DNA of 64,000 nucleotides from NCBI GenBank assembly GCA_030704615.1, contig CM060732.1, positions 34,906,001 to 34,970,000 of the forward strand, written 5' to 3'. The translations under genes and the position numbers were made by a program. The DNA comes from Takakia lepidozioides (lineage: Eukaryota > Plantae > Bryophyta). A model generated the notes under the pieces. It did not search any database and was not told where the DNA came from. It was given only the letters and a program-made list of their open reading frames with translations. Shown piece after piece: positions 16,282 through 47,855 of this stretch. How positions within the stretch are numbered: the first letter of the stretch is position 1; every line of letters begins with the position of its first letter.

Positions 16282-16502
16282 TCTGCTGCTGGGATTAGAG
16301 CGAGACCCTTCGAGAGGTTGTACAACCTGGCAACGACTGACTAGTGCTGGATTGAGGGAGCGGTGTATGCCGAGCAGCTCTGAATCTGTAGAGATAAAAA
16401 TTGGGGAGGCCGGGAGAGAATGCAGACTGTATATTGTTTGCCCGTCTACAACCCAGCTAGACGAGGTTGCTGTGATGCTGAGAGCAGGAATGTGAAGGTG
16501 CT

Positions 16503-16510
16503 CTTTATAC
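16503..16510 (-). promoter_or_regulatory. candidate TATA box of PAL
   Basis: TATAAAGA on the minus strand ~225 bp upstream of the start codon. Confidence 0.35.
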
Positions 16511-22314: not shown

Positions 22315-23226
22315 GGGGATGCTTCCGCGTGAGCGCAGGCAGGCTCACGTCATGTCAGCAGTTCTTGCCACCTTGGTTGACGGGTCTGACGCCACGTCAG
22401 CCGACCTCGCCAACGTGCTTGACACCACGTCGCGTCATGCCACGTCATTTTCATGGGCCTGGGCCTATAACCGCGGACCGAACAGGCAAAGGGGGCCTAT
22501 AGCCGCGGATTGCGCATTCAGCAGACAGGAAACCATGTGTGGGCGACAAGGCGAGGTGCAGAAGAGAGCTGAATGTTGCTGAATGATAGTGTTTGTAGAG
22601 ACTTAAATGGTTGTGGATGAATTAATGTCCAGGTCATCAGTCTACAATGGTCATCAGAGATGATTTAATGTCATGCTAATGTGGTATTCTACGTTGCTAT
22701 TATCAATCTACAATGGTTGTGGATGAATTAATGAGGATGAAGCAGAGCTAATGTGGATGGGACGCTGCGAGTATGGATGAATGAGGATGAAAAGTGGTGG
22801 ACGAATATGGATGAAATATCGTGAATGAATGAGAGAGTGGATGAATTTTGAGCGAGGATGTCATTCTAACATTTATGAAAACCAAGCACAACGATGAATG
22901 TCGTTTGCACAAACATTAGAAATTGTGCCTAAAATCCCTCATGAACCACATGATAAGATGAATGTCTGTCATTTGGGGAAAGGTAGACAGATGACAGAAA
23001 TGTAGAATAAGACAACACTTAAACCCTTTGCTCATGCAGATTGCCAGAATGATGCTAATGAGAGACTCAAACAAACAGCTGTTTACTGTACATTACAATC
23101 AAAGCCTACAAGCCAGGAACTGTTCACTGTATGAAATGCATAGAAGCCACGGTTGTAAATGCATACACGCCATGAAAATGAGAAACCATCTTTTAACGAC
23201 ATTACCACGAACAGGCACAAATTTTA

Positions 23227-26200
23227 TTACAAAATCTGGGAGGGAAAGCCTGCCTCCTCCAACATGGCAATCTCCTTAGTTGTGAGATGTGTCCCTACCT
23301 TCACAGGCCAAACGCTTGGTGGAGGAGGCTTCATGACAACCGATGGTCGCACAGTCCCACGCACGCACCTACCACAGTCGTCAGGGCAGATCCAGAATTT
23401 GTGGTTCTTTGCCTCGGCTTGCTCGTAAGGCGTGAACAAACCAGTGAAGGTCAGAGCCGGAGTGCGGACCTTGTCTTTGGATATGGAGGACTTGCATTTC
23501 TCACGATTGGTTACTCTAATTGCTGTGCACTTCACTCGAGACCCAGCAGCCAGACTTCGTCAGGGCACATGGACTCCACCACAGGGGGGAGCATGTTCGT
23601 CTCCTGCCCCATTCCACTCACAGTGGGAGATGGCTGCCTTTGGCTTTGTGACAAAGGATCGTCCGCACTGGATATGCCGGAAACGAACCCACTACAACAG
23701 AACGCGGTATATCTGACTGGCAGGCCGCGGTAGTCATGGTTTTCCTGACTTTGACCATGACTTCCCTGTATTTTTGGACCAAATGGGGCTTCACGTACTC
23801 GTTGAAATGACTGCGTGACTACGTAGTCCTACTTTATCATGACTGCATGGCTCCGCAATACCGAAAGGTTGGCCAACGATGGTTGACCAGCGTGAGCTCA
23901 CCACCAAATAGTCGTTGGAATGACTTCTAGTGCAAGCGTGGTAGCCAAAAGGTTAAAACAATTTAAAAAGTTGTTTATAGGGTTGTCCATTAGAGGGCTG
24001 GGACTTAGTTTTTTTTCTTATTTCTCCTGCGCGGTTTCTTAGTATCGAGCTGTTGTGTCATGGAACACAATGATTGCAGGATAGGGCGTGGGATGGAGGC
24101 TTTGCATTGAGCTACTGATGCGGGGCGAAGCGCAACTTGCACCGCAACCGCAATGGGCTCTTGGCTCATGTTCGTACCGTGATGTGGTATTCTTCCTAAT
24201 GTTTACAAGGTTCTTGGGAGAGTCAGCTTGGTCTTGGTAGTCCGTGTTTCAATCGACGCCTGCTCAGCTGCACCGTGGTGGTTCTCACAGTCCAATCCGA
24301 CATTACCTGACGATAGACACAAGCAGCACATACAAAAGGTCCTCTTGGGTTCATGGTCAGTCAAATCCTCCATGGGTCATGACACAAGGTCGAGGACAAA
24401 TGTGGTGAGGGCACCTTCTTCTTCGACCTATTTCAGCCTGTTTTGCCCTCTCATCAGACTCGGCACGGAGCAGAGCTGACATGAGTTTGTGAAGATCCTT
24501 CACGATCATGGTGGGACAACCGCAATCACAAGGTGTGGCTTTTTCTTAATGTACCATGTGAAGAAGTTAGTCCATCCTGTAAATTTGGGCTCTTGGCTCC
24601 TGTTATGAAATGACAGCAAAAAAGAGGGTTATTTGCATCCTCAATGCATGTGCTGACCTGGAAGCCCTGTAAGTAGGCAAGAGGTTGATGTTGACATCAT
24701 CAAAGCTGGGATTGCACTGGATGTAAATTTGGAGACTGGCCTTGCTGACATGAACGCGAAATGTGGAAGCATGCCTGGCAAACTCTGGTGAGTGTAAGTT
24801 TTGGTTGTTGTTATGGTTGATGACCTGGTTTAGTATCTTTAAATAAATATACACGTGTACCATATTCTTGGTAGTTAGGGACTGGTGATTGATTTCTGAA
24901 TATCTGTTGGAAGATTAGGATTTATGAGCTATTGACTAAGTTTTCAAAGTTATATGCACTAAGTTACAATCTAGCTTGCCATGTACAAGCTCCCTGAGAA
25001 TTACCGTATTTCAGGGTCACTTGACCAGTCTGTGACCTACAATCCCAAACTGCCTTGCTGTACATTTTTCACCAAAGGGGCTCGTGGATTCTCTCGCAAT
25101 AAGTTTAAGCAAGAGGGTGAATGCAGACATCTGCAGCAGTAGCCAGATTGAGCCTTGTGTGGGAGCGAATCTGTAAACACAAGCAACCAGTTGTGGAGCC
25201 TCATGAATCAGCCCTTTTCAACTAGGCCAATGCGGTAAGCTTACTCACTGGACCCTTTGTTCAAGATTTTTGAAGTTGGTAGATAGCGTATTATAGGCAC
25301 AAACCCGCAAATGGATTTGAAGAGGGCGTCTCCCTTGTGAGAATACCTAGGACATTAGATTAGGATATGAATAATAATGTCTTCAGGTTGCCCACACCAC
25401 GGGCATTGGCAATCCACTTTTCCTCTCTACTTCTGTTTGTTGTCCAAATGCAGATTCCCGAAGTTTCCATTCAGTTTACAACCAAGATTGACCTGAATGG
25501 GCCTAGGCTTTTGGCTTAGCCTTCAGATTTACAAAGTTGGTAAATAGGGGCACGTGAACAATTCCCTGAATGGATTCTCACAGGAATTTGCGATCCCCCT
25601 TCCTCTCTGATTCTGTTTGCTGCTGAAAGGTAGGCTTCCTGCCCTAAGTTTAAATTCAGTCTAGTGCCGAGAGTGTGTCACTGTCTTTATCTTTCCAGCA
25701 AAGGTTGTCCTGCAGGTCTGGGTTTTTGGTCATTTCCATCCGGTTTGTAAAACCTTCCATGTTAAGAGCCGGTTTTTGCTCCCTCTCTGAACCTTGACAT
25801 CCAACCTGGTTATGTTCAAGCTGTACATCACTGTAAGATAGGTGTGGTTTTTTGGGGCAATTCACACTAACTATGCACTCTTCCCTCGTCCTAATTTCAG
25901 TGACGGTGCTGGTGTCCATGGGCTGGTCTTGGCAGACCTGCAATCTCTCACTATTCTCTTGATAGATAGATTCATGAACTCATGTGTTCGTGGTTGTGGT
26001 GTGCATGCAGTGGGCATGGAGTTACTGCACATTCGTGACCTGGGAACCGTCTTGACAATAATTTATAACAAGGCTGATGTAAGGCTGTTTGTCATGGCTA
26101 GTGAACCAAAGTAGGAAATTTAACGATTATGAGGGCAACATGTATGTTATGTTCGCCCCCTTAGACTCTGTTTTGAGGAGCCAGATTTTGGGACAGGAGT

Positions 26201-29200
26201 GCTATTTTGTAAATCTGACTGACAATTGTTTAAGACAATCTCTTTTTATACCTGAAATCAGTCCCTTCAGTGCCTCTGTTATGTCCTTTGCGCTTTGTCG
26301 CTTTGTTCTTTCCTGTGAATGATGGTGGGTTTGTGATTTTCCAAATAATATTTCTCAACAACTAATTTGATGTCACGCGTCCAACCCAACAAACCACTCT
26401 ACAGTAGGCACCATGACTACACATCACGCATCATACATTGACACGTGTCATATCCTTGAGAAAACACCTGGCAATGAGCTCCTATAGGCATAGTCGTGGG
26501 AATGACTTTAAATACATTTAAAGTTCAAAATAAACTACTCATATGGTGCCGCGTGTCCAGATATTAGCATGGTTGTAGTCAGGATAATGACTGTAGGACC
26601 TCCTCATGGATATGCCACATGGCAGTTTATGAAGACACCATATGGCGCACATCCACAAAACCTCCTGGACTTATTAAAAAGAGACACGCGTACAGTTTGC
26701 AGCAGCACACTAAGTCATGTATAGTAGAAGTACATATGACTGCCAAATGACAGTGAGATGTATCACTTGGTATCATCTGACTATAGTCATCCATGACCAA
26801 CCATCTCGTACTCATTGTATTCACTTGGTTTGCACGACTTGCAGTCAGCGCAGTCATATGTATCGTTTATGACTACGGGATAGTCATATATACAGTCACA
26901 TATACCGCGATCTGTTGTAGTGACCTCTGATGAAATGGAACACGCGGCATGGAGAAGTTGTCCCTGACCGGCCTGTGGGAGTCCGCATCCGACCCAGGAG
27001 GGATGTTCAATTTCCGTTTACAAGACCCGAATATCTCCTGGCCCTCCAGATGGGGAATTTTGGACACTAGTGGAGTTCCTTCCGCATACATGTTGACAGC
27101 CCTGGCAATCTTGTTCGGATCCCCTGATCTTCTTGCTGCTCGCAACATCAACTTAGACTTGTCTGGACCCTGGCCACCAACGCCACCCCGCAAGAACTCC
27201 CGATATCTCGACTGTTGCAGTAGAACTCGAATCAGATCATCTGCCGTCGCCAAATACAAATCCCGGCCCCGCTTTCCAGATTGCTGCAACCATATATTGT
27301 GCACTGTCTCCGCCAGATTGCAAGAGGGCATGTCCGCCATCTCCTCAATTGACAAGTGCTGCAGAATGGGAAAACATACATCAGATAGAGGACAGGCACA
27401 CCCCACCACAACACACATGATTGCAAATAGATACAAAGTCAACGAAATTCGCATACTCTCAAATTCACGTACCGCTGTCATGCATGCTCCCCATTGTCTG
27501 TACCGGAAGTGCCAAAATGTCAGCCAGTCTTCTAGCGCACTCATATTGTCTTCTGATGCAGCCCCAGATGAGAACCACCATGCACGAATTGTCTGGAACA
27601 ATGTATTCGCCTCTGCCATGTTTTTGGCATCTTTGTACTATTTGCATAGCCTAAGATGAGTAGGCTGCATTTCCGGTTTGATGTCTGCCTTTGTATTTTT
27701 CTCAAGGAACTGCGTCCAATGGAGAAGACATGTTTGCTCTCTTCATGGCATTGGCACCTTTGGATTTGGACCTGATCCAAACACAATGCGAACAACATTG
27801 AAATTCGCTTGAGCACTGTTGGCCATAAAACCGGCGAAATTTGGAGATGGAACACCCTGGGAGGCCATGACGCGAATGAGACTTCTCCACATTAACTGCT
27901 GCAAATCTGCATCCTCTGATTGCATGTCACACACTGCAATTGTCATGACTCGCTAGTAGAAATGATCATAAATATGACACGCCATGATTGTCCAGTCTTT
28001 CACTCGTTTGACGTGATCAAACATAAGGAAACAGTTCTGAAGATCGCCACCCTTCTGCATGCGCTTGACACTGACTCCGCTGCCCTCCCCTGCTGTCGAC
28101 ATTTTGAAAAGATGCACTTTGTTTGACCCTTGACCTGGGAACACACTCTCTTGAATGTAGTCATACTTGCTCCGTTGCTTCAATTCGAAAATGTTATCAA
28201 CGTACCCTCTGTTAGTAGAGCCCATCCTCAATGCATTCACCTGGTTTTTAATGTTTGGTGAGCTCAAGGTAGAGAAGTGATCCATAAAACATTGTCCAAG
28301 GCTGGCCCGTCCAGTTTCCTGCCCACAGAATCTCTTTCAATAAGAATATGGGTTTCTAGGAAAGTCTTGTTTGCTCCAAGAACAATTGTGGAGGTGGTGG
28401 CTGTTGGATTGCTCTCATACTCCTGTCTTATCAACCTGGATACCGTTTCAACACTTTCCCTATAATCTCCCTTCGACAGTGGATGGTTGTGGAAGCCGAA
28501 ATGCACACCGGCTCTAGTCAAGGTTGGAAAACGGTGCACCACATAGTACATTCTTGCTCCACACACTGCCAGACAGGAAGGCGCTCGTTTGCAGAACTTG
28601 CAAACGAAAGTGTTGGAGCTTAGAGGTGCTTCACCGGGCTTGAAAGGATTCTCGGCGACACCCTCCCACTTGCTCTGGTTTTGAACCTCTGACCGCAGGA
28701 ATTGTCTACAACTCAAATTCTCGCACCTCAGGTGCCCATTGCACACCGCTCTCCTGAACATGAGCTTGTCATCATTTTGAATATTGGATGTCTTTGTTCT
28801 GCACCATGGGTGTCCATCGTGTCTCTTGTCCATTCTGTGCATGAGGCTCGAAACAGGTCCACCCCGCCCAGGTGAAGGCAGCTCGAAGACGACATCCCCA
28901 TCAAAAGACCCCGGCAGGTACTGCACACGCTCAACATGGATAGTGTCCCAGTCAATCCCCCGTAATTCACTCTTGAAACCAGGCATTCCTCCCATTGACT
29001 TCAGTTTAGGAATGACACTAGACAGGTCATTCAATTCCGGCTCCATGACCACCGGAGAAGGCACCACAAATGCAATTTTCGGAACGTCCTCCTCCGAGGA
29101 GTCGGAGAGCTCAACTATTTGTGTGGAAGTTGTGGGCTCCGTCTTCACGACCACATTCCTCTTGTCTTGAACAATAGAAGCAGCAGTCCTTGGTGTGACA

Positions 29201-29490
29201 TACGAACCAATCGACTGCCGTCAAGGAGCTCCAAGAACCCTGTACTATCTTCCTGGAGGAACTCTCCACTGACTCATAAGTGAGTTTTCATCCGGTTTCT
29301 GGAAAGCATACTTCATCAACTTCCCATCGACACCGTAAACCTCTCTTTCGAGCTAGACAGTGCCATACTGGAACTCGAAATGCGTTGTTAGGAGATGTTC
29401 CTCCACAATTGCAAAACCATTGTCATTGGTATCCTTCGAGAAAGGTATTGGTTTCTCCACAGAGTAAAACTCCGCTTCAGTGGAAGCCAT
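23227..29490 (-). pseudogene. GCM-type zinc-domain + MULE-like DDE transposase, split by CACTA 23690-26922
   Basis: GCM-like W..T.N....R..C.G...C...C...CKFC......C...G.H.HP (28490-28815). DDE core: FLMFDHVKRV, GFMA(N/D)SAQAN, CLLHW (CxxH), CNLAETVHN. C-terminus FWICPDDCGRC...WPVKVGT at 23230-23689. Stops and frameshifts present. Confidence 0.72.
23690..26922. mobile_element. non-autonomous (Pack-)CACTA element A
   Basis: TIRs CACTACAACAGA(A/T)CGCGGTATAT.TGACTG, 3-bp TSD ACC, atgact/agtcat subterminal repeats; cargo of PPR bits, an unknown exon and LINE fragments (25290-25670). Confidence 0.92.
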
Positions 29491-30266: not shown

Positions 30267-33200
30267 ATGAAAGGTCGCAAACTGAACATGACGCTGAAGG
30301 AGATCGCAGAGAAGAGCGCGGCCCTGGAAACCAAACACATGGCGGGGGAGGACCAGCCGCCAGCTCTTGATGGAGTTGGGGATGAAACTGCGTCAGAGGA
30401 CGACACAGACGCTATGGACATAGACGAGCCACGCTGTTGCGAAGGAATCCACGCCGAAGGGGAAGAATGTCATGTAGGAGGAGGCGACGCCGAAGGGGAA
30501 GAAGGCTGCCCAAACGGGGAGGACGGCCGCCATTGTGGCTACTTCGAAGGCATCTGGGAGTTCTTCAGCCAAAAGACCTCAGGTGATTCTCTTACTTGCC
30601 TTCTTCCGCCAGGTTTCAGGGCATGAAAATTGCGTGCGGTGGCGCATGCAATTTTCATGCCCTCTTTTCTTCTATTTTCTGTTTGAACATTCAGAGTAAG
30701 ACCACAGGGATGCAGGCATTGCACGACACCCAAACCCGGAGGTGACCATCTACTCACTTTTCATCTACTGCATAGGAGGAGGGACGTTCACATTTGAGAC
30801 AGGTTGTACCATCCCAGTTACTGAGATTAGAGTTCCTGGAAATGAGAGAAGGCCATAGAGAGAACCCCCAAAAATTGCGTGCGTCGACGCACGCAATTTG
30901 TGAGTGTTTTGTCTAGCATTCTCTCATTTCCGTGTCTCTCATTACCCTATTCTCTGAAGTTACAGCTGTGATGTGTGAGCAGCGACAGAAGCCGTGCAAA
31001 CTCCACAAAGTGAGTGTGAGAGAACCCTCAGAAATTGCATGCGTCAACGCACGCAGTTTCTGGAGATTCTCACACTCACTTTTCTGCTTGCAGCGAAATT
31101 TGATTAACTGTCTGTAGCATATTGTTATGGAAGAGAGTAGATTGATATTGGGTATGAAATAGGCATGGAAATGAGTACTTTTTAGAGGGTAGAAAATTGC
31201 GTGCATTGAAGCACACAATGTTTGGCAAGGCTTTTCCATGCGAAATATATCACTTTGAGTGCAGACGAAGAAAAGGAAAGGTGCTGCTCAGGTAGAGGAC
31301 GAAGTGATTGAGCAGGAACTGGTGGTTGTTGAGGAGGAGGACAATGGCAGGCATACGAAGATAGAGCGAAAGATCTGCTTTCCTTCTCCAAAGTGAATTT
31401 GGCCCAAGTCATCAAGGCCATGGGCGTCCTTGGGGGAAAAATAATGATACCTTTATGTCGTTTGATCTCCATGCCCTTCGTTCGACCAGCTCTCACGAAT
31501 GACATTCAAAAGTTGGAATCAAGAGATATCATAGCACCGAGGAGGAGTGACACTACTCTGTGGCCTCAATGGTGCTATATCCCAAGGGAAACATCACTGC
31601 ACTGTTGACGGCAATGCATGACGTTAACAAGTAAGTGTCTTCTTCACCTTTTATTGTCTGACTTTTTCCCATGTCTGTCTGTTCGCTTTTAGCACTCACT
31701 GATGACATACCACTGTATGTGACAGGGGAACTAAAACCGCCCATTTGACAACGAACCTGCTTCACACCCTATTCAGGATCCAAAATATCGGCCAGATGCC
31801 CCTCAATTCATTCAAGAGCATCCTGAGTGCGGAGTCCTTCAAGAAATGCTTGACATCCAAAATGTCTGACACCTGGTATAAGCTGACGAGGGAAGCATTC
31901 ATGGAGTACATGTACATGGTAAATATTCCATCACTTTGGCCTTTCATTGTCTGTTGTAATATGTGATCTCATTCCGGATTACGTTTTGCAGCAAGAAATA
32001 ACTGAAGCTAGAGAGAGAGGAAAAACAGAGTACTATTTGAAAAACCCGGAGGGTATAAGAACGTTCAAGGGAGTGGTGGAAGCCATGAAATTTACGATGA
32101 ATGAGACACAGAAGAAGCTCATGAGTGCTTTGTGAAGTAGCTGAGAATAGCTGACCCTGATTTTGGTCCCGAATTCCTAAACCAGGTGAGGATCCACTGG
32201 AACAATAACACCAAACCGGAGATGACACAAAAAAAGCTTCACCGGTTGTCAAACTGCAGCGATGGAAGCAGACAGAAAAGTGAAATGGTTGGAGATTTGG
32301 AATTCCGACCCAACTGTCAAGGATACATACTGCTTCCCTAGGGGTGAAAGAGATGAGAACATTGGGCACATCAAACCCTTCAGTGATCAAGTTTTCGATA
32401 CATGGTTGCACATAGCCACCTACTGGAGCCAAGTATTCTTTAGGACTTTCTTTGCTTGAAATTTTGGAGTTATCTTCCTATGTCTCCCTGCAGATTGAAG
32501 CTCGTGCAAACAAGGTGCTGGAGAAATAGCTTCATGATTACAAAATTACGATGACCGTGCCCGAGGACACTCTGGAGGATTACTTGAGATAGTGGAAGGC
32601 GACTGCTTGGAGCAACTGCTTCTTCAGAGAGTTTTCCCGAGATGGAGGCATATCCAGCACAAATGACTTTGACCAACAGTTCGGAGCGGAGGGAGCCATG
32701 AAGAGGGTCCTATACAGGTTCATTAATTTATTTTTCTGTTTGCAAATTATCTTTGGCAACTAGTAGACAGGCAGTTTGTGGCCATGCAAAACTGCGTGCG
32801 CCAACGTACGTAGTTTTGGAGGGCCACAAACTCAGGTGTGTTATCCCCTCTATCATGGATTTCATTGCTTTGGTGGCTGTTCTTGCTGCATTTGAGGATG
32901 TTTTGAAGCGTCAGGGACAATGTAACACATCTGCCGATAATGGGGTATCTTTCTGCATATGGAACCCTCTGTTTTGTCTTATTTGCTTGTATTGGTTGTG
33001 GGTTAGTGGATTTTGGTTGCCTCATGCTCATGTGTGTGTGCACCCCCAAACTATGTGCGTCGACGCACGCATTTTGGGAGGGCCAGACTACATCACTATC
33101 TAAAAGTGTACATCCTTTATTTTGTAGGTATATCAAGAACGTGCTCATTCCGGGGAAAAACCTTAGTAAGTACCTTACCTTCATCGACTTGTGGTCTAAC

Positions 33201-34843
33201 TCCTCTAACAACCAGACCATGTATACGACAACCATCCTTAGGGACTACGGGAGATATCACCTGAAGGACTGCTGCTGGTATCTTGACATTCCCAAATCAG
33301 ATTGCCCCTGGAATGAGTTGCAGACACGGAACCATAACGACAATGCGGAGTCGTTGGCCCCTCTAACGGACAAGGAATTGCATGAGAAGAATCTGCGCAA
33401 CCTCGCTGAGAAGGAACCCGCAGCCAACAAAACTCATGCGAGAGGGAAGAGAAAGGGAAAAGGTACAAAGGACAAAAGGAAGGAGAAGACCACCCAAGGG
33501 GAGGCTGCTAGGGGTGGGACAGCGCAAACCCCAATTGCAAACAATGAACGAAAACGCAAGGGGAAGTTTGAGCCATACGACGCAGTGGAGCACCCATCCA
33601 GAATCCAGCGAGAATATAAATGTGAGCTTGTCAATTATTCATTCCTGGCCATGATAAAGAGCAGAAAATCTGGTTACACTAGAGAACCCTCTCGAACTTG
33701 GGGCAAGTTGTGTGCATTCCTTGAGTCGGTAAGCCATTTTCCATTGTTTGTTTTTGTTAATGTTTTCCATTTTGGAAAGTGATTTAATTTTTGCCTTTTG
33801 TCTGTTTTCAGGTTTCGAAGGGGCAGTGTTGGGTCAATGGTGCTCAGAAACCGTATGGTGCCGACATGGTGATTGTGGACATTCCAGATGGGCGGCCAGT
33901 AACTGGCACTTGCCCAACATGGAATGCATTTGATGAGAGGTACTGGCGGTGGGTCTTTTCATTTTGCAATTTTTTTTAATCGGATGCAGGGGTTCTAGTA
34001 ATGATCCAGTCCGTCACTACGAAATGTCGACGGGAGCTTGCAAGCTACCTCAAGGCCTCGAGATGGTGTGAACAGCCTGTACTTGATAAAGGGCGACTGT
34101 CTGGGACAAATGGTAATCGACCTTGTCTTGCCTGCTTCATAGGAAGTTCAATTTCACCCCTCCAAAAATGAGTGCGTCAACGCACTCAATTTCGGAGGTT
34201 CAAGCACTGTTCTTTCTAGATGTTTATTTGGGCATTCACCCATATGTGCTTCATGTTGTCTTGGCACATGTTTCACCCCGATCCTGCTGCGGTGTTTTGT
34301 TCTTCTTGCAAAGTTTGTTACATCGTCCTAACAGTACTCTGTCTTGCAGGAGCTTCGTACCATGCTTGCAAGGCAACGGGCAGGCATTTGTTTGGTATGG
34401 AAGGGGATGCGGCCATTTTTAGTGACCTCCTCCATAACTTGGAAGGGCCAGCGCCTGCCGCCCAACAACATGAGGGTATGGTGCATGTGGAAATCAACGA
34501 GGGGAACGACAAAGCCCTAGACAGCGATTTCGCATGTGAGTAAGTTGATTTTTTGTAAGCATCCGAGTTATCCCACGCAAATGGCCCCGCCTTTCTCATT
34601 CATGGTAGCTAATGCAATTCATGTACTTTGGGTGGCAGGATATTGGAAGCTATTCCTTTGCTCGACGTCTGTGTTCTTCACAGTGACTTGTGGTACAGCC
34701 CTCCATGTTCATACATCCTACCCGACTACGCGGAGGCCATTGCTCGTCTTGACAGAGTTTCATGTTATCTCCCCCATGTGCTCGGAAGCACAACAGGTAC
34801 CTCGGAGCTCGGGTTTTCGTCGATGATACTGCACAAGTTTTAG
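30267..34843 (+). pseudogene. multi-exon TE gene: possible ParB-like N-terminal region + beta-class N4C/N6A DNA methyltransferase domain
   Basis: GT-AG exons (e.g. 31265-31630, 31725-31918, 33129-33728, 33812-34112, 34350-34535). ADMVIVDIPDG...WN....W...F..C..FLSDAGVLV resembles motif IV DPPY and the following LkpgG strand. GASYHACKATGRHLFGMEGDAAIF matches the GST..A....GR..IG.E.D..Y/F SAM-binding segment. Stops and frameshifts present. Confidence 0.68.
30618..34198. repeat. dispersed intronic palindrome family AAATTGCGTGCGTCGACGCACGCAATTT (7 copies)
   Basis: Copies at 30618-30663, 30872-30899 (perfect), 31007-31083, 31194-31221, 32773-32832, 33043-33081, 34159-34198. Confidence 0.9.
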
Positions 34844-37099
34844 GGGATAGTTCTAGTGACTGAAATGTCAATTTTATTATTTTTTGGGGTCTCGTGATGT
34901 TATGAGTTTCAGACTGACTTACACACATACGTTGCATCGAATCCACCTCATTAATGCACATGCGACAAATGGAAGGTGACATGAATCAGGATTTGCCAAC
35001 CTGTGTAATTCCATAAGGTGGTTTGGGTATGGCCTCCTTTTCCATTGCCCTCCGAATGATCTGTCTGGCACGGTACCTCCTGTCCTTCAAGTTTCGCCCC
35101 ACCATCTCCATCACCCTTGTGTCACTCCAATTGCCCAGAAACCAGCGGTCTAACTCACGGGCATACGCCCGCTTCGCGCCAAAGTGCTGATCAGCCCATG
35201 ATGTGCAAAGGAAACCACCTCAATGCGAGTTCGAAGGCTGGCTTCTTCATAGCCTCCCAGAACGCACCGCAGGGGTCACCATGGCGATTCACCTCCACCG
35301 GTGGCACCACGATCTTTGCCAACTCCACGTCCTGTATCGCCAAGGCCATCCCACCCTCTCCCTACTTTGTAGCCTCCTTCCCCTGCTCCTTTGTTACCCC
35401 ACTGCCCTCCCCCGCATGCACACTCACCCCTTCCTCTCCATGGGACTTCTTTTTCTTCTTCTTCTTTTCCTTCCCCTTCCCCGCTACTTCCTCTCTCTCC
35501 TTCTCCCTCTCCCTTCTCTCTCTCTCCTCGGCAGCCCCTTCATTGATGGTAAAAGGGATCTCAGGAGATCGAGGCCTCTTCTTCTTACCTTTGGTGTTCG
35601 GGTCCTTCATGAACACCACGTGCTCTCCCTCATTGGCAACCCCACTGGACTGCACTAATGAGGCCAGCCATGTTGCTGCCTTTTGAAGACAAATAACCCC
35701 TCCAAATTCAAAAAAGAAACAAACAACAAAGAAAATCATGCATGCAAAAGAAAGGATAAATCATGGAACAAGGTGCGACAGTTGTACCTTTGCAAGCTTG
35801 TCCGACTCGCCCCTGGTGTCACCCGATGTGGGAGGAGTCCTTGTTGCCGGATGTGCCCGCTCTATCCTCTCCCGGAGCGCCACTGGAAGTAGATTCCAGA
35901 TGTGGAGCATAGCCGGCGGCGGCGGGGGCCTGTAGTCTAGGCCCTTCTTTGCTGACCGCTCAGGCTCAGGGGGCGATGTCGCTGATCGGCTAGTCTGCTC
36001 CAAACCGGCCCATACCTCCTCCTCTCCCCCCACCCCCCCCCCCCCCAAATGCGTATCAGGGTAGAAGCCCTCACCCGGCTTGACTTCTTCGAGGCGCTTC
36101 GCTATCTTGGCCACTTCATTGGCCCTCCTCGTCTCCTCCTCCCTCATCGACAACAATGGGCTGGCAATGGAGGCTTTCAAAGGCCCTTGAACCTGACGTT
36201 GGGCCTTGGCAAGTGCAGCCTTTGCTGCGGAGGAAGGGGTCGCTATGGGGCACTAGAAGCATTTGTGTCTTTTTCAAATCGACTGCATGTCCAAAACCAC
36301 TGAGGGAACAACTTTGAGATGTTTGTTACTACTGCACAGTCGTAACGGATAAATTCACATTTCTAATGGCGGATAGAAGTTACATCAATGACTCCGCAGT
36401 CGGCACAATATTCGCGGCGATTTAATTCAATTACGTAAATTGTTTTTTTTTTAAAACAACAATTACAAGTGGTTTTAAGCACTAGAGAATGACTCTTAAC
36501 AACTAGGCATTCATTGCACACCCTATTCAAAAATGGAATTTTTATAAGTGCTCCACATGGCTCATGACATGGAATATTTTAATGTATTTTAGGGCTTGTG
36601 TGGCTCGTAGAGATTGTTCTAATCGTCGGATGTAAAATGATCTAAGGGTGGAAGAGTAACTTTGTCCTTTGCCTGAATTTGTCTAAGTGTTGGGAGAGGG
36701 ATGGAGGCTTGAGAGAGAGACGAACAAGTGATGCGAGAAGGACGAAGACCAAATCGAGGCCCATGTCCTGTTGTTGCAAGCGTTTATGGCGTCAAGGGCG
36801 CATTATGTGCAAATGTGGGCTCTTGGCTTGTACCATGATTTGGTATCCTTCCTGATGATCACAAGGTTCTTGGGGGAATCAGCTTGGTCTTAGCAGCCCA
36901 TATTTTAATCTCTGCCCGCTCAGCTGCACCGTGGTGGTTCTTACGAACCAATCCCACATTACCTGACTACAGATACAAGCAGCACGCACAAGAGGTCTTC
37001 TTGGGTTCATGGTCAGTCTAATCCGCAATGGGTCATGACACAAGGTAGAGGACAATGTGGTGAGGGCACCTTCTTCTTCGAGCTATTTCAGCCTGTTTT

Positions 37100-37902
37100 G
37101 CCGAGATGTAGTGTCGTGGAGTGCGATGCTTGCAGGGTATGCACAGCAGGGACGTGGGATGGAGGCTTTGGAGACCTATGAAGTTGCGAAGGGAGAGTTT
37201 GATAACATGGCTGAACAAGATGTTGTCTCAAGGAACACGCTGAATCTCGCAAGATATGGCCAGCATGTGTGCGGGATGAGGGCATTGGAGACATATGAGC
37301 AAATGTTGCGAGAAGGGGTGCAACCTGACCGGGTCACGTTCATTTGTGTTTGCAATGCATGTGCAAACCTGGCAGCCCTGGAGACTTGGTAAAGGGCAAA
37401 GAGGTCCATCGTGACATCGTCAAAGCTGGAACTGTACCAGATGTAACAATACCTCGTCGACATGTATGCCAAACGTGGGAGCATTCCCTTGTGGACAAGG
37501 AGTGTTCAACAATATGGCTGAGCGAAATGTGGTGTGGTGGAACATGATGATCGCAGGACATGCACAACATGGGCGGGTTGGAGACCTATGAGCAAATGAA
37601 GTGGGTCTAGGGGGTGAAGCCCGAGCACATTACGTTTGTTTGTGTTTGTAGTGCATGTGCGAGCCTGTTGGAGAAGGGCAAAGAGGTCCATGGTTGCATC
37701 GTCAAAGCTGGAATTGTGGTAGATGTCATTCTGAACATGAATACCCTTCTAGATAGGGAGTGTTCAACAATATGGCTGAGCGAAATGTGGTGTCGTGGAA
37801 AGTGATGATCGCAGGACATGCACAACAGGGGCGGGGATTGCAGGTTTTGGAGACCTATGAGCAGATGATGTGGGAGGGGGTGAAGTCCGACCACATTACG
37901 TT
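37100..37902 (+). pseudogene. captured PLS-class PPR gene fragments (tandem, frameshifted); continues at 44307-44452
   Basis: RDVVSWSAMLAGYAQQGRGMEALETYEQM, GVQPDRVTFICVCNACANLAAL, GKEVH, ERNVVSW. Confidence 0.85.
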
Positions 37903-39951
37903 CAGAGAGTTCAAATGCCTCTCCACCATGACCTTGCTTAGCTAGCCATGCCTTGCTGATGTTGTTGTCTTGCACTTGAGCTGTTTTTGGATACTGGCTG
38001 GAACATCCACAAGGCGGCTCTGCTCGAGAGAGAAATCAGCTTGAATGCAGGGGCAGATTTTGAGATCACAATCGCCACTCATAACGTTGTTCTTTGCACC
38101 GGCATGGCATGTCAGCATGCATATCAGCCCAAACTCATTACTCCGTGAGCCTTCCACTGCCGGAGTGTGCCCATTCAAGCTAGATCTTCGAAACGCAAGG
38201 ATGGAACGGGGTTTTGAAACCAGCATTGCCTAACTGGATACCCAATTCAGCTCCGCATCTTGGTCCATTAATCTGCTGCACATTGTGAAGTTTTTTGCCC
38301 GTTCACCGCAAGTTGAAGAAGGAGTATTCTTAAAACACGGGTACTCATAATCTGAAAATGGCTCCAGCTTATGTTGCTTGAGTGCGAATATGAGTGTGGT
38401 TGGCTTGGCAGCTTTACATCTGGTCCATCCCACTCGATATGATGAGCAGGTTCAGCTTGACTTCTCTCACACAAAAGACGCTGCCAAGATGGGGTTTGCT
38501 GCCCTAGATGACTTCCCGTCGTTGTTCTGGGCTGCAACATATAATTAATCTGGCCCATGGCGAGGGGCCTTGCCTTCCACCAATCATCTGTAAGTCCTGT
38601 GAAACTGTTTTTGTGGCAGTTTGTAAGCAGTGGGCAGCGATGGTGGGCTGTTGTAGGATTTGATGAACTCAATGTCGTGTACTAACAGCAACCCCTCATC
38701 TCTTATGCAAGCATTCAACAAGCCAAGTTGACTGCAGAGCATATTCAGCCCCCCACGTTTCTAGTTGCCTAATGTTCTTCATCTCCTGGGCAGAGCATTT
38801 TCCAGGGTCTCCATCTGTGATTGCACACTATCTTCTCATGTGGTTCAGCTTCTGGTCTTGCTCTTGTTTGCACCACCCCAATGAAGGGCAGTTCCCACCT
38901 GCTTGATTCTCTCCATATGGTTGTCTTGGGCCTTGGCAGGGTTTCCCACAACCGCCTTTCCTTTTGAGACTGCCAGTCATCAGCCTCGTTCTCCAATGCT
39001 TCACTTTCTTCCCAAGTGAAGTGCTCTCCTCTTTTATGCTTCAACGTCCCTCACTACAAGAGATGAACGTTTTTAGGACTACGGATTTGGCGGAGTCATA
39101 AAAACGGCACTAGGTGTACGACTACAGAGCGTTGAACTGCGTTGCAGTCATAGTTTTACCACTTTGTAGTAATGGATATCACTACATGACTCCGGAAAGT
39201 TAGGGAGCATTGGTCAAACATTGTTGACCATGATGACAGGGATGGTTTTATGACTAGTGTGATATCTTTGACTACACGTGGACGACGTTTCATGGAATCT
39301 TGTGACTCCATGACTGAAGATGGTTTTACAGCTCTATTTATTCGACTACATCCCTACACGTGTCATTTTGAAAGTACATACATGAATGTATTCATCCATT
39401 TGATAAGTTTATCCATCGATGACATGGCATGTAAACTTATGAGTCCCTTACTGCAAATTGTTTCATAACTCTATATATATTACTGCATCATTACACGTGT
39501 CATTTAAAAGGCACATACATTAATGAATTCATCCAATGGATGGGTTCATCCCTCCGCCTATACGGTGTGTCGATTTGATATCTGTTCAATAAATTGGACC
39601 TGGATGGACGTGGCTTAACAAGCATTGCAAGATATATGAGATTAAAATACGCAATGGTCATGGTTGTACAAGGCTAGATCATGTGATGGAAATTATTTTG
39701 AATCGTTAGATTTTACAGGATCTAACGGTCTAGATTATTTAAGATCTAACGGTTTAAGATTACACCGCTGAACTTTACATCGGGCTGGGACTTAGGCTTT
39801 TTTGTCTCCTGCGTTTCACCATCTATTTGATGTTGTGTCATGTATGCAAGGGCGTGGGATGGAGGCTTTGCAGACCTTCCTACTCTTGAGAAAATGATGC
39901 AGGAAGGAGAAGAGGAGGAGGAGAGGAGACGATGCTACCCCTGCCAACCAG

Positions 39952-39952
<1 letters not shown>

Positions 39953-39990
<38 letters not shown>
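39953..39990 (+). repeat. (GA)n microsatellite
   Basis: Uninterrupted AG dinucleotide run. Confidence 0.95.
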
Positions 39991-39991
<1 letters not shown>

Positions 39992-41019
39992 GCTCATGCG
40001 AAGGGTCCTGCTTCAAACCGCCAGCAGCAGCGCAGGCTGTAGGATTTCGAGGATGAGCAGCCATGGCAGCGCGTACAATGCGTATTGTACGCGGGACATC
40101 CTCCGTATGTGGCTACGCTCACAAGCGTCCCCGAGGAGCTCAGCTTGGTCATAGCAGGTCGTGTTTCAATCTCTGCCTGCTCAGTTGCACCGTGGTGGTT
40201 CGATCTCACATACCAATCTGACATTACCTGACTACAGATACAAGCAGCACACACAAGAGGTCCTTTTGGGTTGATGGTCGGTCAAATCCTCCATGGGTCA
40301 TGACACAAGGTAAAGGACAATGTGGTGAGGATACCTTCTTCTTCGACCTATTTCAGCCTGTTTTGCCCTCTCATCAGACTCGGCCCTGAGATGCATATTG
40401 AATTTTGTAAGTTAGCTCGGTGGGTGGATCTGTGGTTGTTTAGAGTGACTTTGACAAGTTGCTGCCGATGTGGCAACATGAAAGTATCCAAAAACAGGTA
40501 ACAGAGATGAGGAGAAGCTTTGGAATGAACACTTTTCCGACCCCAGTCAAATGGCGGGACAATGGAGACAAAAAGGTAAGTGCATGTTGGACTACACTAG
40601 AGAGAAGTAGATGCAATTTAGAATTAGAACTACTGTAATAATTAGGGTTGGGGTTTGCTGGAAGAACTTCACGCCGTCAGTGTCAGCTGCTAGCAGAAAG
40701 TATTCATGATTTGTACACAGATAGGGATAGCTGAAGGACAAGGGATAGAGGTCCAGGTTCATCCAAGAGGGCCGGATTTCAAACACAATATTAGTTATGA
40801 TTCCCTGTGGATCAATAGCTACAAGAAATCTGCTAACGAGAAAATGGTCTGCTAATAAAGGCACCTTTTTCAACACATTTCACCCTGTTTTTCCCTCTTA
40901 TCATAATCGGATAGTTTGGAGTGACTTTGACATGATACTGCCAATGTGACAACATGAAAGTATCCAAAAGAGGTAACAGAGATGAGGAGAAGCTGTGGAA
41001 TGAATACTTTCCCCTAGTT

Positions 41020-41435
41020 CTGGACATATATGCCAATGTCAAGGGAGTGTTCAACACTATGGCTAAACGAGATGTGGTATCGTGGAGTGCGATGCTTGCA
41101 GGGTATGCACAGCAGGATGGAGGCTTTGGATACCTATGAGCAAATGATGGGGAAAGGGGTGAAGCTCGACCACATCATTTTAGTGTGTGTTTGCAGTGCG
41201 TGTGCAAGCCTGACAGCCCGGGAAAAGGGCAAAGAGGTGCATGGTTGCATCACCAAAGTTGGAATTGTACCATGTGTGATTTTGAACAATACCTCGTGGA
41301 CATGTATGCCAAATGTGGGAGCATTGAGGATGCGGAGAGAGCCTTCAACACTATGGTTGAACAAGATGTGGTGTCGTGGAACGCGATGCTTGCACGATAT
41401 GCACAGCAAGGGCGTGGGATGGAGGTTTTGGAGAC
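41020..41435 (+). pseudogene. captured PPR gene fragment
   Basis: AKRDVVSWSAMLAGYAQQ, GVKLDHIILVCVCSACASL, LVDMYAKCGSIEDAERAFNTMVEQDVVSWNAML. Confidence 0.88.
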
Positions 41436-44400
41436 AGGAAAGTATCGAAAAACAGTTAACAGAGACGAGGAGAAGCTCTGGAATGAATATGTTTCCGACC
41501 CCAGTCAATGGTGGAACAATCCAGGCAAAAAGGTGAATTCATGTTGGAAGTAGATGCAAGTCAGCATAGGAACTAGTGTGATAAGTAGGGTTGGGGTGTT
41601 TGTTGGAATACTTATAGGCTGTCATTGTCAGCTGCTAGCAGCAAGGCAATGATGTATGCATGATTTGTGCATAGGCGAGGATATCTAAAGGAGCAGGGAT
41701 AGAGTGTAGGTCCAGATTCATCCAAGAGGGCCGGATTTCAATCTCCAGATTACCTATGATTCACTGTGGAAGGATAGCTACAAGAAACCTGCATGGGTAG
41801 ATGATCAATTGGTTGGTTTTGAGCTGAAGAGCACGACCCCTGCAGGGATGTCTCTCCATCTGTAGATCCTTTAGGAAGTGAAAGGCTAGGGCCCAGCTTT
41901 CTTATGACAGTGTTAGCTGATTTTCAGTTCTTCTCCTCAGCTCGGTGCCTTTCTGTTTCCAAGTTATGGCAGTAGTCTCTGGCTGCAGTCTCTTTTCCTG
42001 CTAGACTCTTTAGCTCTATGCAGACCCCTTTCTTTACTTGCTTTCCTTCTTACTACTCTTTCTTGTCTTGGTACGCAAAGCTGTGTCTTCCTCTTTCAGC
42101 CTCTATGGCACTCTATCCAGAGGTTATTTTTTCCTCTTTGTATCCAAGGACATTTTATGTCCATTACCTATAAAGTTCTGGAGGCCACTATCCCCCCACT
42201 GTCCCTCTTTGATAACAAAAATAAATAATAAATAAATAAAAGACAACAATGGCTTCCATTCTATGAACCTAGAAACCTAGTGAGAATTTAAATCAATTAA
42301 TAATCTAAATATTATAATTGTCTGATTTAATTTATTAAATTAAAATATTATTAAAAAACCTCTTTAGTCATGAAGTTATATACTCATGACTACATCATGG
42401 CATCATGGCATTATATGATATGATATTCTTTCCCACGTGTAGGTCATATATGTTGTCCATGTGGACACGTGTCACATCTGGAGTGCTACATGTGTCTCTC
42501 TGACGCCTCTCCAATGGAGTCATATACTTTGTAGACATGTAGTCATATAGTTAATCATATATAAATCATATAGTTGTGACTACATCGCTCTCTGCAGCTT
42601 GACATCAGGTGCCACGCACGCAGTCACGGCTATGACTTGCAAAACGCAGTCCTAAAGACTAGTCGCTATGACAGGGCTTTTTTCACTGCAGAGTGATGTA
42701 GTCATGAACGCATATAGGACTGAAAAAATAGTCATATGTGCAGTCATAAAAACGTTCATCTATTGTAGTGCATGCAGGTGTCTTTTCCTTCATCTCCCGT
42801 GGTGCTTTCGAATGAATGAGCACTAATTTGCATCTGTTGGTAACACTTACGGTATCCCTTTCCTTGCATGCCACTGCAGGCCCGTCATTGACTTTCTTGG
42901 CAGGGAAGTCTCCTCCTTCTCCCTCATTTTCTGGCTCTGTTGGTGCCCCACTCACCATGCTATCAGGGCTGCACTTATTTCGTGGTGTTGCGCCAGCCAA
43001 GGGTGATCTTTCACTGGTCCGATTGTTGGCAGCAGCTGATTGGAGTCTTCTTGGCAGAGTCTCCCACGAGCTCCCATCAATTTCAGGCATCAGGTTTTCT
43101 ACCCTGCCCTTCCACTTTTCATAAGTGAGGTGCCTGTCTTCCTCCCTTTCACTCTTCAGCCTCTCAGGCAGATTTTTCTTCATGCGATTGCTGCTCCCAT
43201 ACTTCCAGTCCTTGTTTAATTTTCTCCAGCCATCACCCTCAGATTTGACAAGGTATTGCTGCCCTTCTTTGTGTCTTCCTCACTCCCAGCTGCTGGTTTT
43301 ATCCCAGATTCACCTCTCATCCTTGCCTGGGGTTTTGCTTGCCAAACAGCCCTTGTGTGGGGAACTTCAACGAAAGGCAACATCTCATTCTCAGCTCCTG
43401 TCTTTGTACCTCTTTGCAGCAGTCCAGCCTCGGGTGCCTCACTTTCTGATTGCTGGGTTGCATTCTTCGACCGCCAACCTTTGACAGGAAAGTGTGCTCC
43501 ATCTTCCTCATCTTCTACTGGTTCCCTTGATGTTTCACCTCGTATGTCTTCCTCCTCATGTTTTAGCAGCAGCTCCCATGCTTGAATTGCTACTTTTCCT
43601 CATAGTTGATCTTGTGCTTTCCTTTTCCTCCATAGCTTAATCAACAGTTTTGTCTTGGCAGCTCCCTTGCCATGAGTGCCTTGTCTCACTGCATCTCCAT
43701 TGGCTGCCCACCATCCGTGGAGTCTTTCTTGCACTATTCTGACCCTCGTTGGCATGCACTTTGCTGCGATGCCCCCACATGTATTTGTTGCTCCCTTTAA
43801 TCATCAACATAGTGCATTCAAGCCAGTTCCTCATTGTTGACCAGTTGACCTTCTCAGCCCTTGGACCCCATTTTCCCTTCTCCCATGTTGCCTCATCTTT
43901 CTAATTCATCATTTGCTTTACTTGCACGATGTTGCTTCTTCCCTACAGCTCATCATGTGTTGTGGCTCTTTCCCATGTTGCACTCACTCCCATCATACGT
44001 TGTGCAGTTGATAAGACTGAGATGAGTTGATGCAGGATAGGGGGAGGGCTTGCTGGTGTATGTTGTCCGATAGGCCCCATGCACAGAGTCAAAGCTGGAA
44101 GTCAGCCTTGCAAGGACCCAAGTGAGAGAAGTCTGGTGGGGGTAGCATCTTGGGGGATGGCAGTTAGGGCAATGTGTGTCTAGGGCAATATATGTCATAG
44201 CAGCGGGTGATGTACTGCCAATTTTGAGGATAGAGACAGCCTGTAAGCTGTAGATTTGTATCAGTGGTTTCTTCTGACACATATTGCTCCCAGTTTGCCA
44301 CAACCAGTTGTTTGCGTTTGTAGTGCATGTGCGAGCCTGCTGGGGAAGGGCAAAGAGGTCCATGGTTGCATCGTCAAAGCTGGAATTGTGGCAGATGTCA

Positions 44401-47139: not shown

Positions 47140-47855
47140 ATTGTACTCATAAGACGTTGTTTGCCGTAGCCTTGTGACCATTGACCCCGCCCAGTTTGAG
47201 CGGAAACAAAAGGGACAGAACCTGCCTCTGTCAGGGGCTGACGTTGGTAGTAAGACTTACCTTCATATATAGAATTAATCTGGGTTTTCCAGATATCCTC
47301 TAGAAATCCCTTCACACAAGCATCAAACTGCTGTGTGTGATTTGCCCAATAACTAGGCCTCAGGAGGGCCTGGGCTTTTGGCTCAGCCTTGAGACTTTCA
47401 AAGTTGGTAAACAGAGGTACAGGCACAATTCCCTTGATAGATTTGAAGAGAGCGTCTCTTTGGTGAGAGAATCCCGGATAGTGTATCAGAAAATGAGTAC
47501 TGTCTTCAGATTGCCCACACAACGGGCAATTGCACTCTCCCTTTCCTCTCTGCTTCTGTTTGCTATTCAAAGGTAGGCTTCCTGCCCTGAGTTTAAATTT
47601 CAGTCTATTGCCGAGAGTGGGTAGACCCTTGAGGTCATCCAAGATGTCCTCCCCCATGTCACTGACTGGAAACAAGTTCAGGGAAGTTTTCTGCCTAACT
47701 TCATTTTCATCAGACAATCTCATGGCAACAGACATGGCTTTGGACACTACAACCTCTAAGTCAGATTTATCAACCCATATTGCAGATCTGTACTCCAAGG
47801 CAGGTCTAATAATGCGACAAAGCATGGTTTTCTTAACCTCAGAGTTGACCCCTCT
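47140..47855 (-). mobile_element. 5'-truncated RTE/RTEX-like LINE copy with TSD and internal deletion
   Basis: High identity to 2080-3046; TSD tgcagaaaaagttaaaaga on both sides; jump IWVD|KSDLE at a gataa microhomology. Confidence 0.9.

What the first reader, a model, noticed from the sequence alone, without database searches (positions are those of the whole stretch)
30618..34198. Seven 28-bp palindromes confined to the introns of the methyltransferase gene
Seen: AAATTGCGTGCGTCGACGCACGCAATTT is perfect at 30872-30899. Six variants lie at 30618-30663, 31007-31083, 31194-31221, 32773-32832, 33043-33081 and 34159-34198. All fall in predicted introns, and I noticed none elsewhere in the window. 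Several extend into longer hairpins whose outer arms differ per copy yet stay self-complementary, so symmetry rather than flank sequence is maintained. Many variants are CG>TG/CA changes (GTCGAC>GTCAAC). Inference: cis sites for an element-encoded protein (parS-like loading site, MTase target centred on GTCGAC, or analogous to VANC-binding motif arrays in VANDAL non-coding regions), or intronic RNA hairpins controlling splicing.
Basis: partly seen in the sequence, partly recalled or inferred. Interest (0 to 1): 0.82.

Follow-up and report, generated by a model that had tools for sequence, protein, structure and literature searches.

The report
Plant transposon with private palindrome sites
Seven copies of one short DNA palindrome sit in the predicted introns of a helper gene inside a broken plant jumping gene, and related families carry different palindromes in that part of the element, which the helper protein likely binds so that the element can recognise its own DNA; a similar idea is already in print for algal elements.

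Summary
Seven copies of a 28-bp palindrome (0-6 mismatches) lie in predicted introns of one gene; the next-best site in 64 kb has 11 mismatches. The gene is a broken accessory gene, head-to-head with a Mutator-like transposase, in a multi-copy land-plant element. Other copies of the family restore the consensus at the same sites. Of 60 distinct related loci, 12 carry the accessory gene, and 11 of those 12 have two or more copies of their own, different palindrome outside the matched exons, often in tandem arrays. The unbiased count is weaker (6/12 against 2/11, p=0.19). The 28-bp core is conserved in sequence; only the outer arms are copy-specific and symmetric. There is no G-U bias, and the CG>TG changes fit host methylation. 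Best reading (0.6): family-specific DNA dyad sites for the accessory protein, whose C-terminus is amino-methyltransferase-like with an altered catalytic motif. A ParB identity for its N-terminus rests on motif resemblance only; my profile and fold tests were blank. The idea is published for algal transposons, and this scan noted the system in several other genomes.

The parts
30627..30654 (.). palindrome 1 (hairpin 30618-30663), predicted first intron
   Evidence: other family copies read the consensus base at 30647 in all laid depth
30872..30899 (.). palindrome 2, perfect copy (hairpin about 30838-30931)
31032..31059 (.). palindrome 3 (hairpin 31007-31083, whose base overlaps a donor-like GTGAGT at 31010); left flank homologous to that of copy 2, 160 bp upstream
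31194..31221 (.). palindrome 4, most decayed
   Evidence: other family copies read the consensus base at 31205, 31215 and 31220 in about three quarters of laid depth
32789..32816 (.). palindrome 5 (hairpin 32773-32832), predicted intron 32719-33127
33048..33075 (.). palindrome 6, same predicted intron
34165..34192 (.). palindrome 7 (hairpin 34159-34198), predicted intron 34113-34350 after the methyltransferase motif-IV exon
30268..34843 (+). gene B, the broken multi-exon accessory gene (stops, frameshifts, deletions); start and first exon approximate
31354..31631 (+). N-terminal domain with ParB-like motifs by eye; about 90 residues are missing after 31518 relative to related elements
   Evidence: alignment A4; loose ends at 31518 in other family copies; ParB identity not confirmed
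33812..34112 (+). amino-methyltransferase-like exon with altered motif IV (DIPDG)
34351..34537 (+). exon with the tail of the SAM-binding region; the exon that carries motif X-I in relatives is not found in this copy
26924..29490 (-). gene A, Mutator-like transposase, broken; head-to-head with gene B
23245..23680 (-). continuation of the transposase gene beyond a nested insertion
   Evidence: tblastn with P0012 and P0013
23690..26922 (.). nested 3.2-kb insertion with 30-bp inverted ends, splitting the transposase gene
35040..36230 (-). gene C, unknown, tail-to-tail with gene B; membership of the element not established

Best explanation
The seven palindromes are repeated dyad sites in the predicted introns of a broken Mutator-like plant transposon's accessory gene, and they likely serve as family-specific docking sites for that gene's own protein, which would bind them as a dimer to recognise and likely protect or activate its own element. 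Shown: the sites, their retention in sister copies, the gene layout, and different palindromes in the non-coding parts of the same gene in related families. Inferred: that the accessory protein is the binder; that its N-terminal domain is ParB-like and might load and spread; that the outcome is escape from host silencing. Whether the methyltransferase-like domain writes a mark is doubtful, since motif IV is altered in every homologue seen. The arrays likely grow by tandem duplication, and the copy-specific outer arms likely arise by template switching at the hairpin. This copy is dead and its sites are decaying by CpG deamination.
For: Seven of seven sites are in predicted introns of gene B and none lies elsewhere in 64 kb. 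Sister copies restore the consensus at 30647, 31205, 31215 and 31220. Twelve of 60 distinct related loci carry gene B; 11 of those 12 have two or more matrix hits for one of four other palindrome types, between transposase and ParB-like exon (upstream of that exon in the differently oriented L013) or in the intron before the motif-IV exon. Two loci first classed as lacking gene B but holding such palindromes (L020, L073) proved to be contigs homologous to the upstream region of gene-B loci. All seven loci with strong type-alpha sites sit on one side of a transposase-tree branch with local support 0.96, and type delta in a clade with 0.90. Tandem periods of 51 and 46 bp in relatives and 160/162 bp here. 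The core is conserved in sequence, not by covariation, with no strand bias for G-U (119 G-U against 129 A-C, p=0.57). A homologue of the motif-IV exon falls among N6_N4_Mtase clusters, and a low-confidence model of another matches CcrM, M.BceJIV and M1.HpyAVI weakly (E 0.04-0.05). Precedent: VANC binds family-specific motifs in introns and other non-coding regions (PMC5735166, passages); ParB-like accessory genes with adjacent inverted-repeat arrays are described in red-algal transposons (10.1101/2025.02.11.637652, passages).
Against: No binding evidence of any kind. ParB identity was not confirmed: no Pfam, PHROG, NCBIfam or PDB sequence match, hhalign probability 0.2% against eight phage/plasmid ParB domains, and an unusable model (pLDDT 40). 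The unbiased association is not significant (6 of 12 against 2 of 11, p=0.19; 7 of 13 against 1 of 10, p=0.07 after moving L020); the stronger figure (p=0.0006) uses matrices trained largely on gene-B loci, and the loci are kin. Types beta and gamma are scattered on the tree, and L076 has a 3-copy array with no gene B found. The G-U test is weak because the copies are dead and decayed neutrally. Hairpins 2 and 3 start at donor-like sites, which an RNA model would welcome. Five of seven hairpins have a flanking direct repeat of 4 or more bases against 26% by chance (p=0.014).
Confidence: 0.6

Rival explanations
1. The palindromes have no function, or are a tiny insertion element: one hairpin was seeded in an intron, spread by tandem duplication or local re-insertion, and its symmetry is kept by template-switch repair.
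For: Outer arms are copy-specific yet symmetric, which template switching can produce (PMC8794818, abstract). Tandem periods are common in relatives. Short flanking direct repeats at 5 of 7 hairpins. CpG decay shows no protection in this copy.
Against: At least five unrelated palindrome types recur in the non-coding parts of the same gene across a deep transposase tree. The centre is conserved and the ends vary, the opposite of a MITE. The flanking repeats differ in length and offset.
Confidence: 0.15
2. They are DNA binding sites, but for the transposase (through its N-terminal zinc-binding domain) or for a host transcription factor, not for the gene B protein.
For: The main cluster lies 1.1-1.7 kb from the transposase start, and types follow transposase clades in part. 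A Mutator transposase is reported to activate cognate copies sequence-specifically (10.64898/2026.08.24.746577, abstract).
Against: Sites lie inside gene B's introns and not at the element ends. Nine of 11 loci with 4 kb or more of upstream DNA and no gene B show no array. Sequence turnover between families fits a host factor poorly.
Confidence: 0.13
3. They act in the pre-mRNA as hairpins that control splicing of gene B (for example by hiding donor sites around micro-exons) or feed small-RNA production.
For: All are intronic; 100-nt windows fold at -25 to -52 kcal/mol; hairpins 2 and 3 begin at donor-like sites; the central four bases vary most, as a loop would.
Against: No G-U excess on the sense strand in three families; both strands fold about equally; the core shows sequence conservation without covariation; intron positions differ between families, and up to 13 copies stand in tandem; no Rfam match above cut-off.
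Confidence: 0.1

Closest known systems
Accessory gene of Sola1-1_Ec32, Ectocarpus (PMC12477816; passages)
   Same: DNA transposon with a second gene on the opposite strand whose product joins a ParB-like domain to an N4/N6 DNA methyltransferase domain; authors propose self-binding and self-modification.
   Different: Brown alga, Sola1 transposase; the word 'palindrom' does not occur in the main text. Here: land plant, Mutator-like transposase, dispersed intronic palindromes that differ by family, altered motif IV. Sequence homology to the Ectocarpus protein was not tested.
PAG3/PAG2 of Plavaka (EnSpm) elements, Bostrychia (10.1101/2025.02.11.637652; passages)
   Same: ParB-like accessory protein with tandem arrays of inverted repeats next to its gene, proposed as its binding sites; homologous accessory genes in red-algal Mutator elements.
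   Different: PAG3 is fused to a 2OG oxygenase and the methylase is a separate gene; arrays are adjacent to the gene, not described as intronic; the ParB call there rests on HHpred E 0.29.
VANDAL/VANC anti-silencing system, Arabidopsis (PMC5735166; passages)
   Same: Transposon with an accessory protein that binds family-specific motifs in introns and other non-coding regions, with motifs amplified by tandem repeat formation and changing between families.
   Different: VANC motifs are 9-bp, non-palindromic and arrayed in one orientation; no Pfam similarity of gene B exons to any family was found; binding and demethylation are shown for VANC and only inferred here.
Bacterial ParB-parS (PMC9178275; passages)
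   Same: Repeated palindromic sites near a gene whose N-terminus has ParB-like motifs by eye.
   Different: parS dyads are 16 bp, bound through an HTH, with a ParA partner; here 26-46 bp dyads, no HTH or ParA identified, and the ParB fold is unconfirmed.
Marchantia DN4MT1 4mC methyltransferases (10.1101/2021.02.12.428880; passages)
   Same: Prokaryote-type amino-methyltransferase fold in a non-seed plant.
   Different: DN4MT1 are host genes with an intact TSPPY motif; gene B is transposon-borne with D-[IVL]-P-x-[GN].

Membership tests
Mutator/MULE transposon | DDE transposase with CxxH between the second D and the E | tested here: met
   Aligned relatives keep D, D, CxxH and E motifs (motif assignment recalled). 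The window copy has N at the second D and several stops.
Mutator/MULE transposon | C-terminal SWIM zinc finger | tested here: met
   P0012, 75% identical to the window's transposase, passes the Pfam SWIM cut-off (21.2 bits); 1 of 18 relatives passes, 2 more score below it. The SWIM part was not found in the window.
Mutator/MULE transposon | Pfam MULE domain match | tested here: inconclusive
   No match for the window pieces or 18 relatives.
Mutator/MULE transposon | terminal inverted repeats and 9-11 bp target duplication | tested here: inconclusive
   No matching ends found; the copy is interrupted by other insertions.
ParB-parS system | N-terminal ParB CTP-binding domain | tested here: inconclusive
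   R-P and DGNH(R)xxAW motifs by eye (resemblance recalled). No support; model pLDDT 40. Inputs were decayed pseudogene exons.
ParB-parS system | repeated palindromic sites in cis | tested here: met
ParB-parS system | HTH domain that reads the site; ParA partner | not tested
   No intact middle region was available to fold; Pfam scans of the pieces were blank.
ParB-parS system | CTP-dependent loading and spreading | not testable with these tools
   needs biochemistry
beta-class N4/N6 DNA methyltransferase | fold and motif order IV, then X-I | tested here: met
   In homologues: P0009 sits among PF01555 clusters at 0.91, weak PF01555 match to motif X-I (E 0.06), weak fold matches, motif order in loci. 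The window copy lacks the X-I exon.
beta-class N4/N6 DNA methyltransferase | catalytic motif IV (D/N/S)-P-P-(Y/F/W) | tested here: not met
   DIPDG in the window; DLPEG, DIPEG, DYPNG, DLPKG, DVPSN in homologues. Canonical motif recalled; TSPPY also.
VANDAL/VANC | family-specific motifs dense in introns and other non-coding parts, amplified in tandem | tested here: met
   against PMC5735166 passages
VANDAL/VANC | short non-palindromic motif in one orientation | tested here: not met
   The motifs are long dyads.
VANDAL/VANC | VANC-homologous protein | tested here: inconclusive
   No Pfam match for gene B pieces; no direct comparison with VANC was run.
VANDAL/VANC | [quoted passage not shown] | not testable with these tools
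   needs transgene and methylome
MITE or introner-type insertion | conserved termini with variable centre | tested here: not met
   Core conserved, outer arms differ between copies.
MITE or introner-type insertion | constant target-site duplication | tested here: inconclusive
   4-6 bp flanking repeats at 5 of 7, with varying length and offset; chance 26% per site.
MITE or introner-type insertion | dispersal across the genome outside the host element | tested here: inconclusive
   None elsewhere in the window; no large depth excess; no whole genome held.

The most novel reading that the evidence does not exclude
Non-seed land plants host Mutator-like transposons with a bacterial-type clamp system for self-recognition: a ParB-like CTP clamp loads at private parS-like palindromes in its own introns, slides along the element through chromatin, and uses a methyltransferase fold with a rewired active site to write or read an amino-methyl mark that shields the element from 5mC silencing, with protein and palindrome diverging together as lock and key.
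Probability: 0.25. Interest if true: 0.85.

Novelty: new variant of a known kind. Interest (0 to 1): 0.5.

Why it matters
If the palindromes are docking sites for the accessory protein, they give the first directly testable target for a class of transposon helper proteins that two algal genome papers only proposed to bind and modify their own element. They would also be a second, independent solution to the VANC problem of family-specific escape from silencing, in land plants. Several families with different palindromes provide built-in specificity controls, and a short-site-targeted chromatin modifier could be useful as a tool. The finding is not unique: this scan has noted the same arrangement in several other genomes, and this copy is dead.

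Tried and rejected
No whole genome is held, so the genome-wide motif scan could not be run. Exact pattern scans found nothing in metagenome, viral or prokaryotic genome contigs; the window's motif is absent from the 80 related loci apart from one single 8-mismatch site seen in three copies of one locus. No RNA holder was listed. Two runs guessed to be RNA gave one contig each across 31049-31413 without a splice joint, and no GT-AG joint inside gene B was listed in the cut tables: inconclusive for intron placement. Searches for full-length gene B proteins found none; the Atlas gave no usable hit for the middle exon. ParB tests were blank: Pfam, PHROGs, NCBIfam, PDB sequences, phage tblastn, hhalign against eight phage/plasmid ParB domains, and fold searches with a pLDDT-40 model; the rows returned there were non-significant. 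The transposase found no relative in viral contigs. Rfam gave one chance-level match. No terminal repeats of the element were found. P0004 is a low-complexity false hit and was left out of alignment A1. Rejected: GTCGAC as a shared methylation target (centres differ among copies and families); compensatory covariation in the core (2 against 2.3 expected). Paper searches listed no paper describing intronic palindromes with a ParB-like/methyltransferase gene in land-plant Mutator elements; only listings were seen for most hits, subscription journals are mostly missing, and Iyer et al. 2011, cited for green-algal relatives in PMC12477816, was not read. Supplements of the Bostrychia preprint and of PMC12477816 were not opened and may list such repeats. 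PMC4738411 (passages) and 10.64898/2026.05.21.726589 (abstract, outline, passages) describe other methyltransferase-bearing elements, not this one.
Full report
Observation. The 28-mer is a perfect palindrome at 30872-30899. Six variants with 3-6 mismatches start at 30627, 31032, 31194, 32789, 33048 and 34165; the next-best sites have 11 mismatches, the level reached by shuffles. An unbiased search for repeated palindromes over the whole window gives only this family. All seven lie in predicted introns, which cover 37% of the gene span. The outer arms are copy-specific and self-complementary in five copies, weakly in copy 7 and not in copy 4 by my anchored score. The core is a different matter: symmetric two-arm changes are 2 against 2.3 expected, so it is conserved as a sequence. 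Ten of 26 departures are CpG deaminations, against 12% expected, which points to past host 5mC on these sites and says nothing for an element-encoded enzyme.

Setting. The window is land-plant DNA: an intronless aromatic amino acid lyase gene, retroelement fragments and a Harbinger-type fragment, plus repeats that I recall as PPR-like. Other notes of this scan call the host likely a moss (unchecked). Gene A (minus strand, 29490-26924, continuing at 23680-23245 past a nested insertion) is a broken transposase; its relatives keep D, D, CxxH and E motifs, and the closest has a SWIM finger, so I file it as Mutator-like, with ends not found. Gene B lies head-to-head on the plus strand (about 30268-34843) and is broken by stops, frameshifts and deletions. 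Gene C follows tail-to-tail and is unexplained.

The family in this genome. Contigs of two DNA runs of one sample cover the whole element at many times single-copy depth (single copy about 28-36, gene B about 800-2600 in X1). Other copies read the consensus base at four decayed positions of palindromes 1 and 4, remove a stop in exon 1, carry a frame-changing base at 31351, and run on at 31518 into sequence that this copy lacks. Contigs that go back from 31087 to 30843 and from 30993 to 30858 suggest copies with extra or reshuffled palindrome units. Depth peaks at palindromes 2 and 3, but the four sites together equal roughly 200-260 single-copy units against 30-100 for the neighbouring exon, which four to seven sites per element would give.

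The protein. The exon at 33812-34112 has 7 matches among 1.84 billion representatives, 6 of them plausible. One cluster member that runs on through the next exon groups with N6_N4_Mtase clusters, and a model of another (pLDDT 58) matches amino- and other SAM-dependent methyltransferases weakly. Motif IV is D-[IVLY]-P-x-[GN] in the readable homologues, not (D/N/S)PP(Y/F). Relatives have an exon with motif X-I that this copy lacks. The N-terminal exon of relatives shows R-P and DGNH(R)xxAW motifs that I recall as ParB-like, and this copy has lost about 90 residues including the second motif. Every tool test of ParB identity was blank, with decayed exons as input, so the label is a lead only.

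Related elements. A transposase alignment found 506 confirmed relatives in the part of the metagenome collection scanned; the best 80 were kept and collapse to 60 distinct loci, 12 with gene B, 11 of them head-to-head as here. None has an array of the window's motif. They have their own: type alpha (L037, L048, L053, L064, L065, L068, weakly L040), beta and gamma (L069, L078, L013) and delta (L030, L060, L020), 1 to 13 copies per locus, outside the matched exons, upstream of the ParB-like exon and, for alpha, in the intron before the motif-IV exon at 51-bp spacing. In L053 the upstream array lies between a donor-like and an acceptor-like site ahead of micro-exons. With matrices, 11 of 12 gene-B loci have two or more sites against 2 of 11 loci without gene B and with 4 kb or more upstream (p=0.0006), but the matrices were trained largely on gene-B loci. 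The unbiased count of arrays of three or more is 6 of 12 against 2 of 11 (p=0.19), or 7 of 13 against 1 of 10 (p=0.07) once L020, whose upstream DNA is homologous to that of L030 and L060, is moved. The other 37 loci had too little upstream DNA and were left out. Alpha and delta each keep to one part of the transposase tree, beta and gamma do not, and the window is on a long separate branch (FastTree, 61 rows, midpoint root, no clade test).

Mechanism. Long dyads with a conserved core, placed only in non-coding parts of one accessory gene, amplified in tandem and replaced between families, are what one expects of binding sites for a dimeric element-encoded protein that changes specificity as families diverge. 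That is the logic shown for VANC (PMC5735166, passages). I commit to the gene B protein as binder and to self-recognition for protection or activation as purpose (0.6); both are inferred. An RNA role predicts G-U excess on the sense strand and core covariation; neither is seen, although dead copies make the test weak and two hairpins start at donor-like sites. Template switching (PMC8794818, abstract) explains the private outer arms without selection but not the recurrence of unrelated palindromes in the same gene. A micro-MITE predicts conserved ends; the reverse holds, though short flanking repeats are somewhat more frequent than chance. The transposase as binder (10.64898/2026.08.24.746577, abstract) remains possible.

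Comparison and novelty. A ParB-like/N4-N6 methyltransferase accessory gene opposite a transposase is described in Ectocarpus, with self-binding proposed (PMC12477816, passages). Inverted-repeat arrays beside a ParB-like accessory gene are described in Bostrychia (10.1101/2025.02.11.637652, passages). My searches listed no paper on land-plant Mutator-like elements with family-specific intronic palindromes. Earlier unchecked notes of this scan report the same system in other genomes; they are not independent support. It works like VANC with parS-like sites; it is not shown to be a member of VANDAL, ParABS or the active amino-methyltransferases. Verdict: real, new variant of a known kind, interest 0.5.

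Noticed in passing
window 23690-26922: A 3.2-kb insertion with 30-bp inverted ends splits the transposase gene; it holds PPR-like and other repeat fragments.
   Followed up: partly
window 35040-36230 and 63455-63908: Gene C, unknown, with a second diverged partial copy (46% identical) near the window's end; no relative in the 80 loci; laid depth higher than for gene B.
   Followed up: partly
window 30695-30741 and 30966-31009: AG...GT-bounded stretches between the palindromes could be micro-exons, which would put the first four palindromes in separate short introns.
   Followed up: partly
window palindromes and L053/L064/L068: The window's extended half-site and type alpha share an outer CCTCCA(A) box at different distances from the dyad centre; may be chance.
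   Followed up: no
L037:929-983, L053:6156-6980, L064:7669-7982, L065:6877-7071, L068:8428-9343: A second, longer palindrome type alternates with type alpha in the upstream array.
   Followed up: no
L037:9609-9761, L044:9282-9380, L048:9162-9316, L060:13598-13711, L068:12732-12847; window 22390-22450: A different array of short inverted repeats rich in CCACGTCA-like words lies downstream of the transposase core in many loci, and similar words cluster near the window element's left side.
   Followed up: no
window 37000-45500 and 24060-24800: Many decayed PPR-like repeat fragments; those at 36730-37500 have very high laid depth, suggesting a high-copy repeat built from PPR-like coding sequence.
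   Followed up: no
window 2464-3561, 47185-47859, 50718-51256: Long inverted and direct copies (94-99% alike) of one retroelement-like repeat, including a 336-bp fold-back with a 146-bp spacer.
   Followed up: no
window 14092-16521: Intact intronless aromatic amino acid lyase (PAL-type) reading frame amid transposon debris.
   Followed up: no
window 31049-31413: Two runs guessed to be RNA, from two studies, hold the same contig in which this stretch is joined to a palindrome half close to its centre; a rearranged copy or an assembly fold-back.
   Followed up: no
L076:2125-2918: Three copies of another palindrome upstream of a transposase with no gene B detected.
   Followed up: partly
window 53120-53348 and 53546-54028: 44-bp tandem repeats beside a Harbinger-type (DDE_Tnp_4) fragment.
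   Followed up: no
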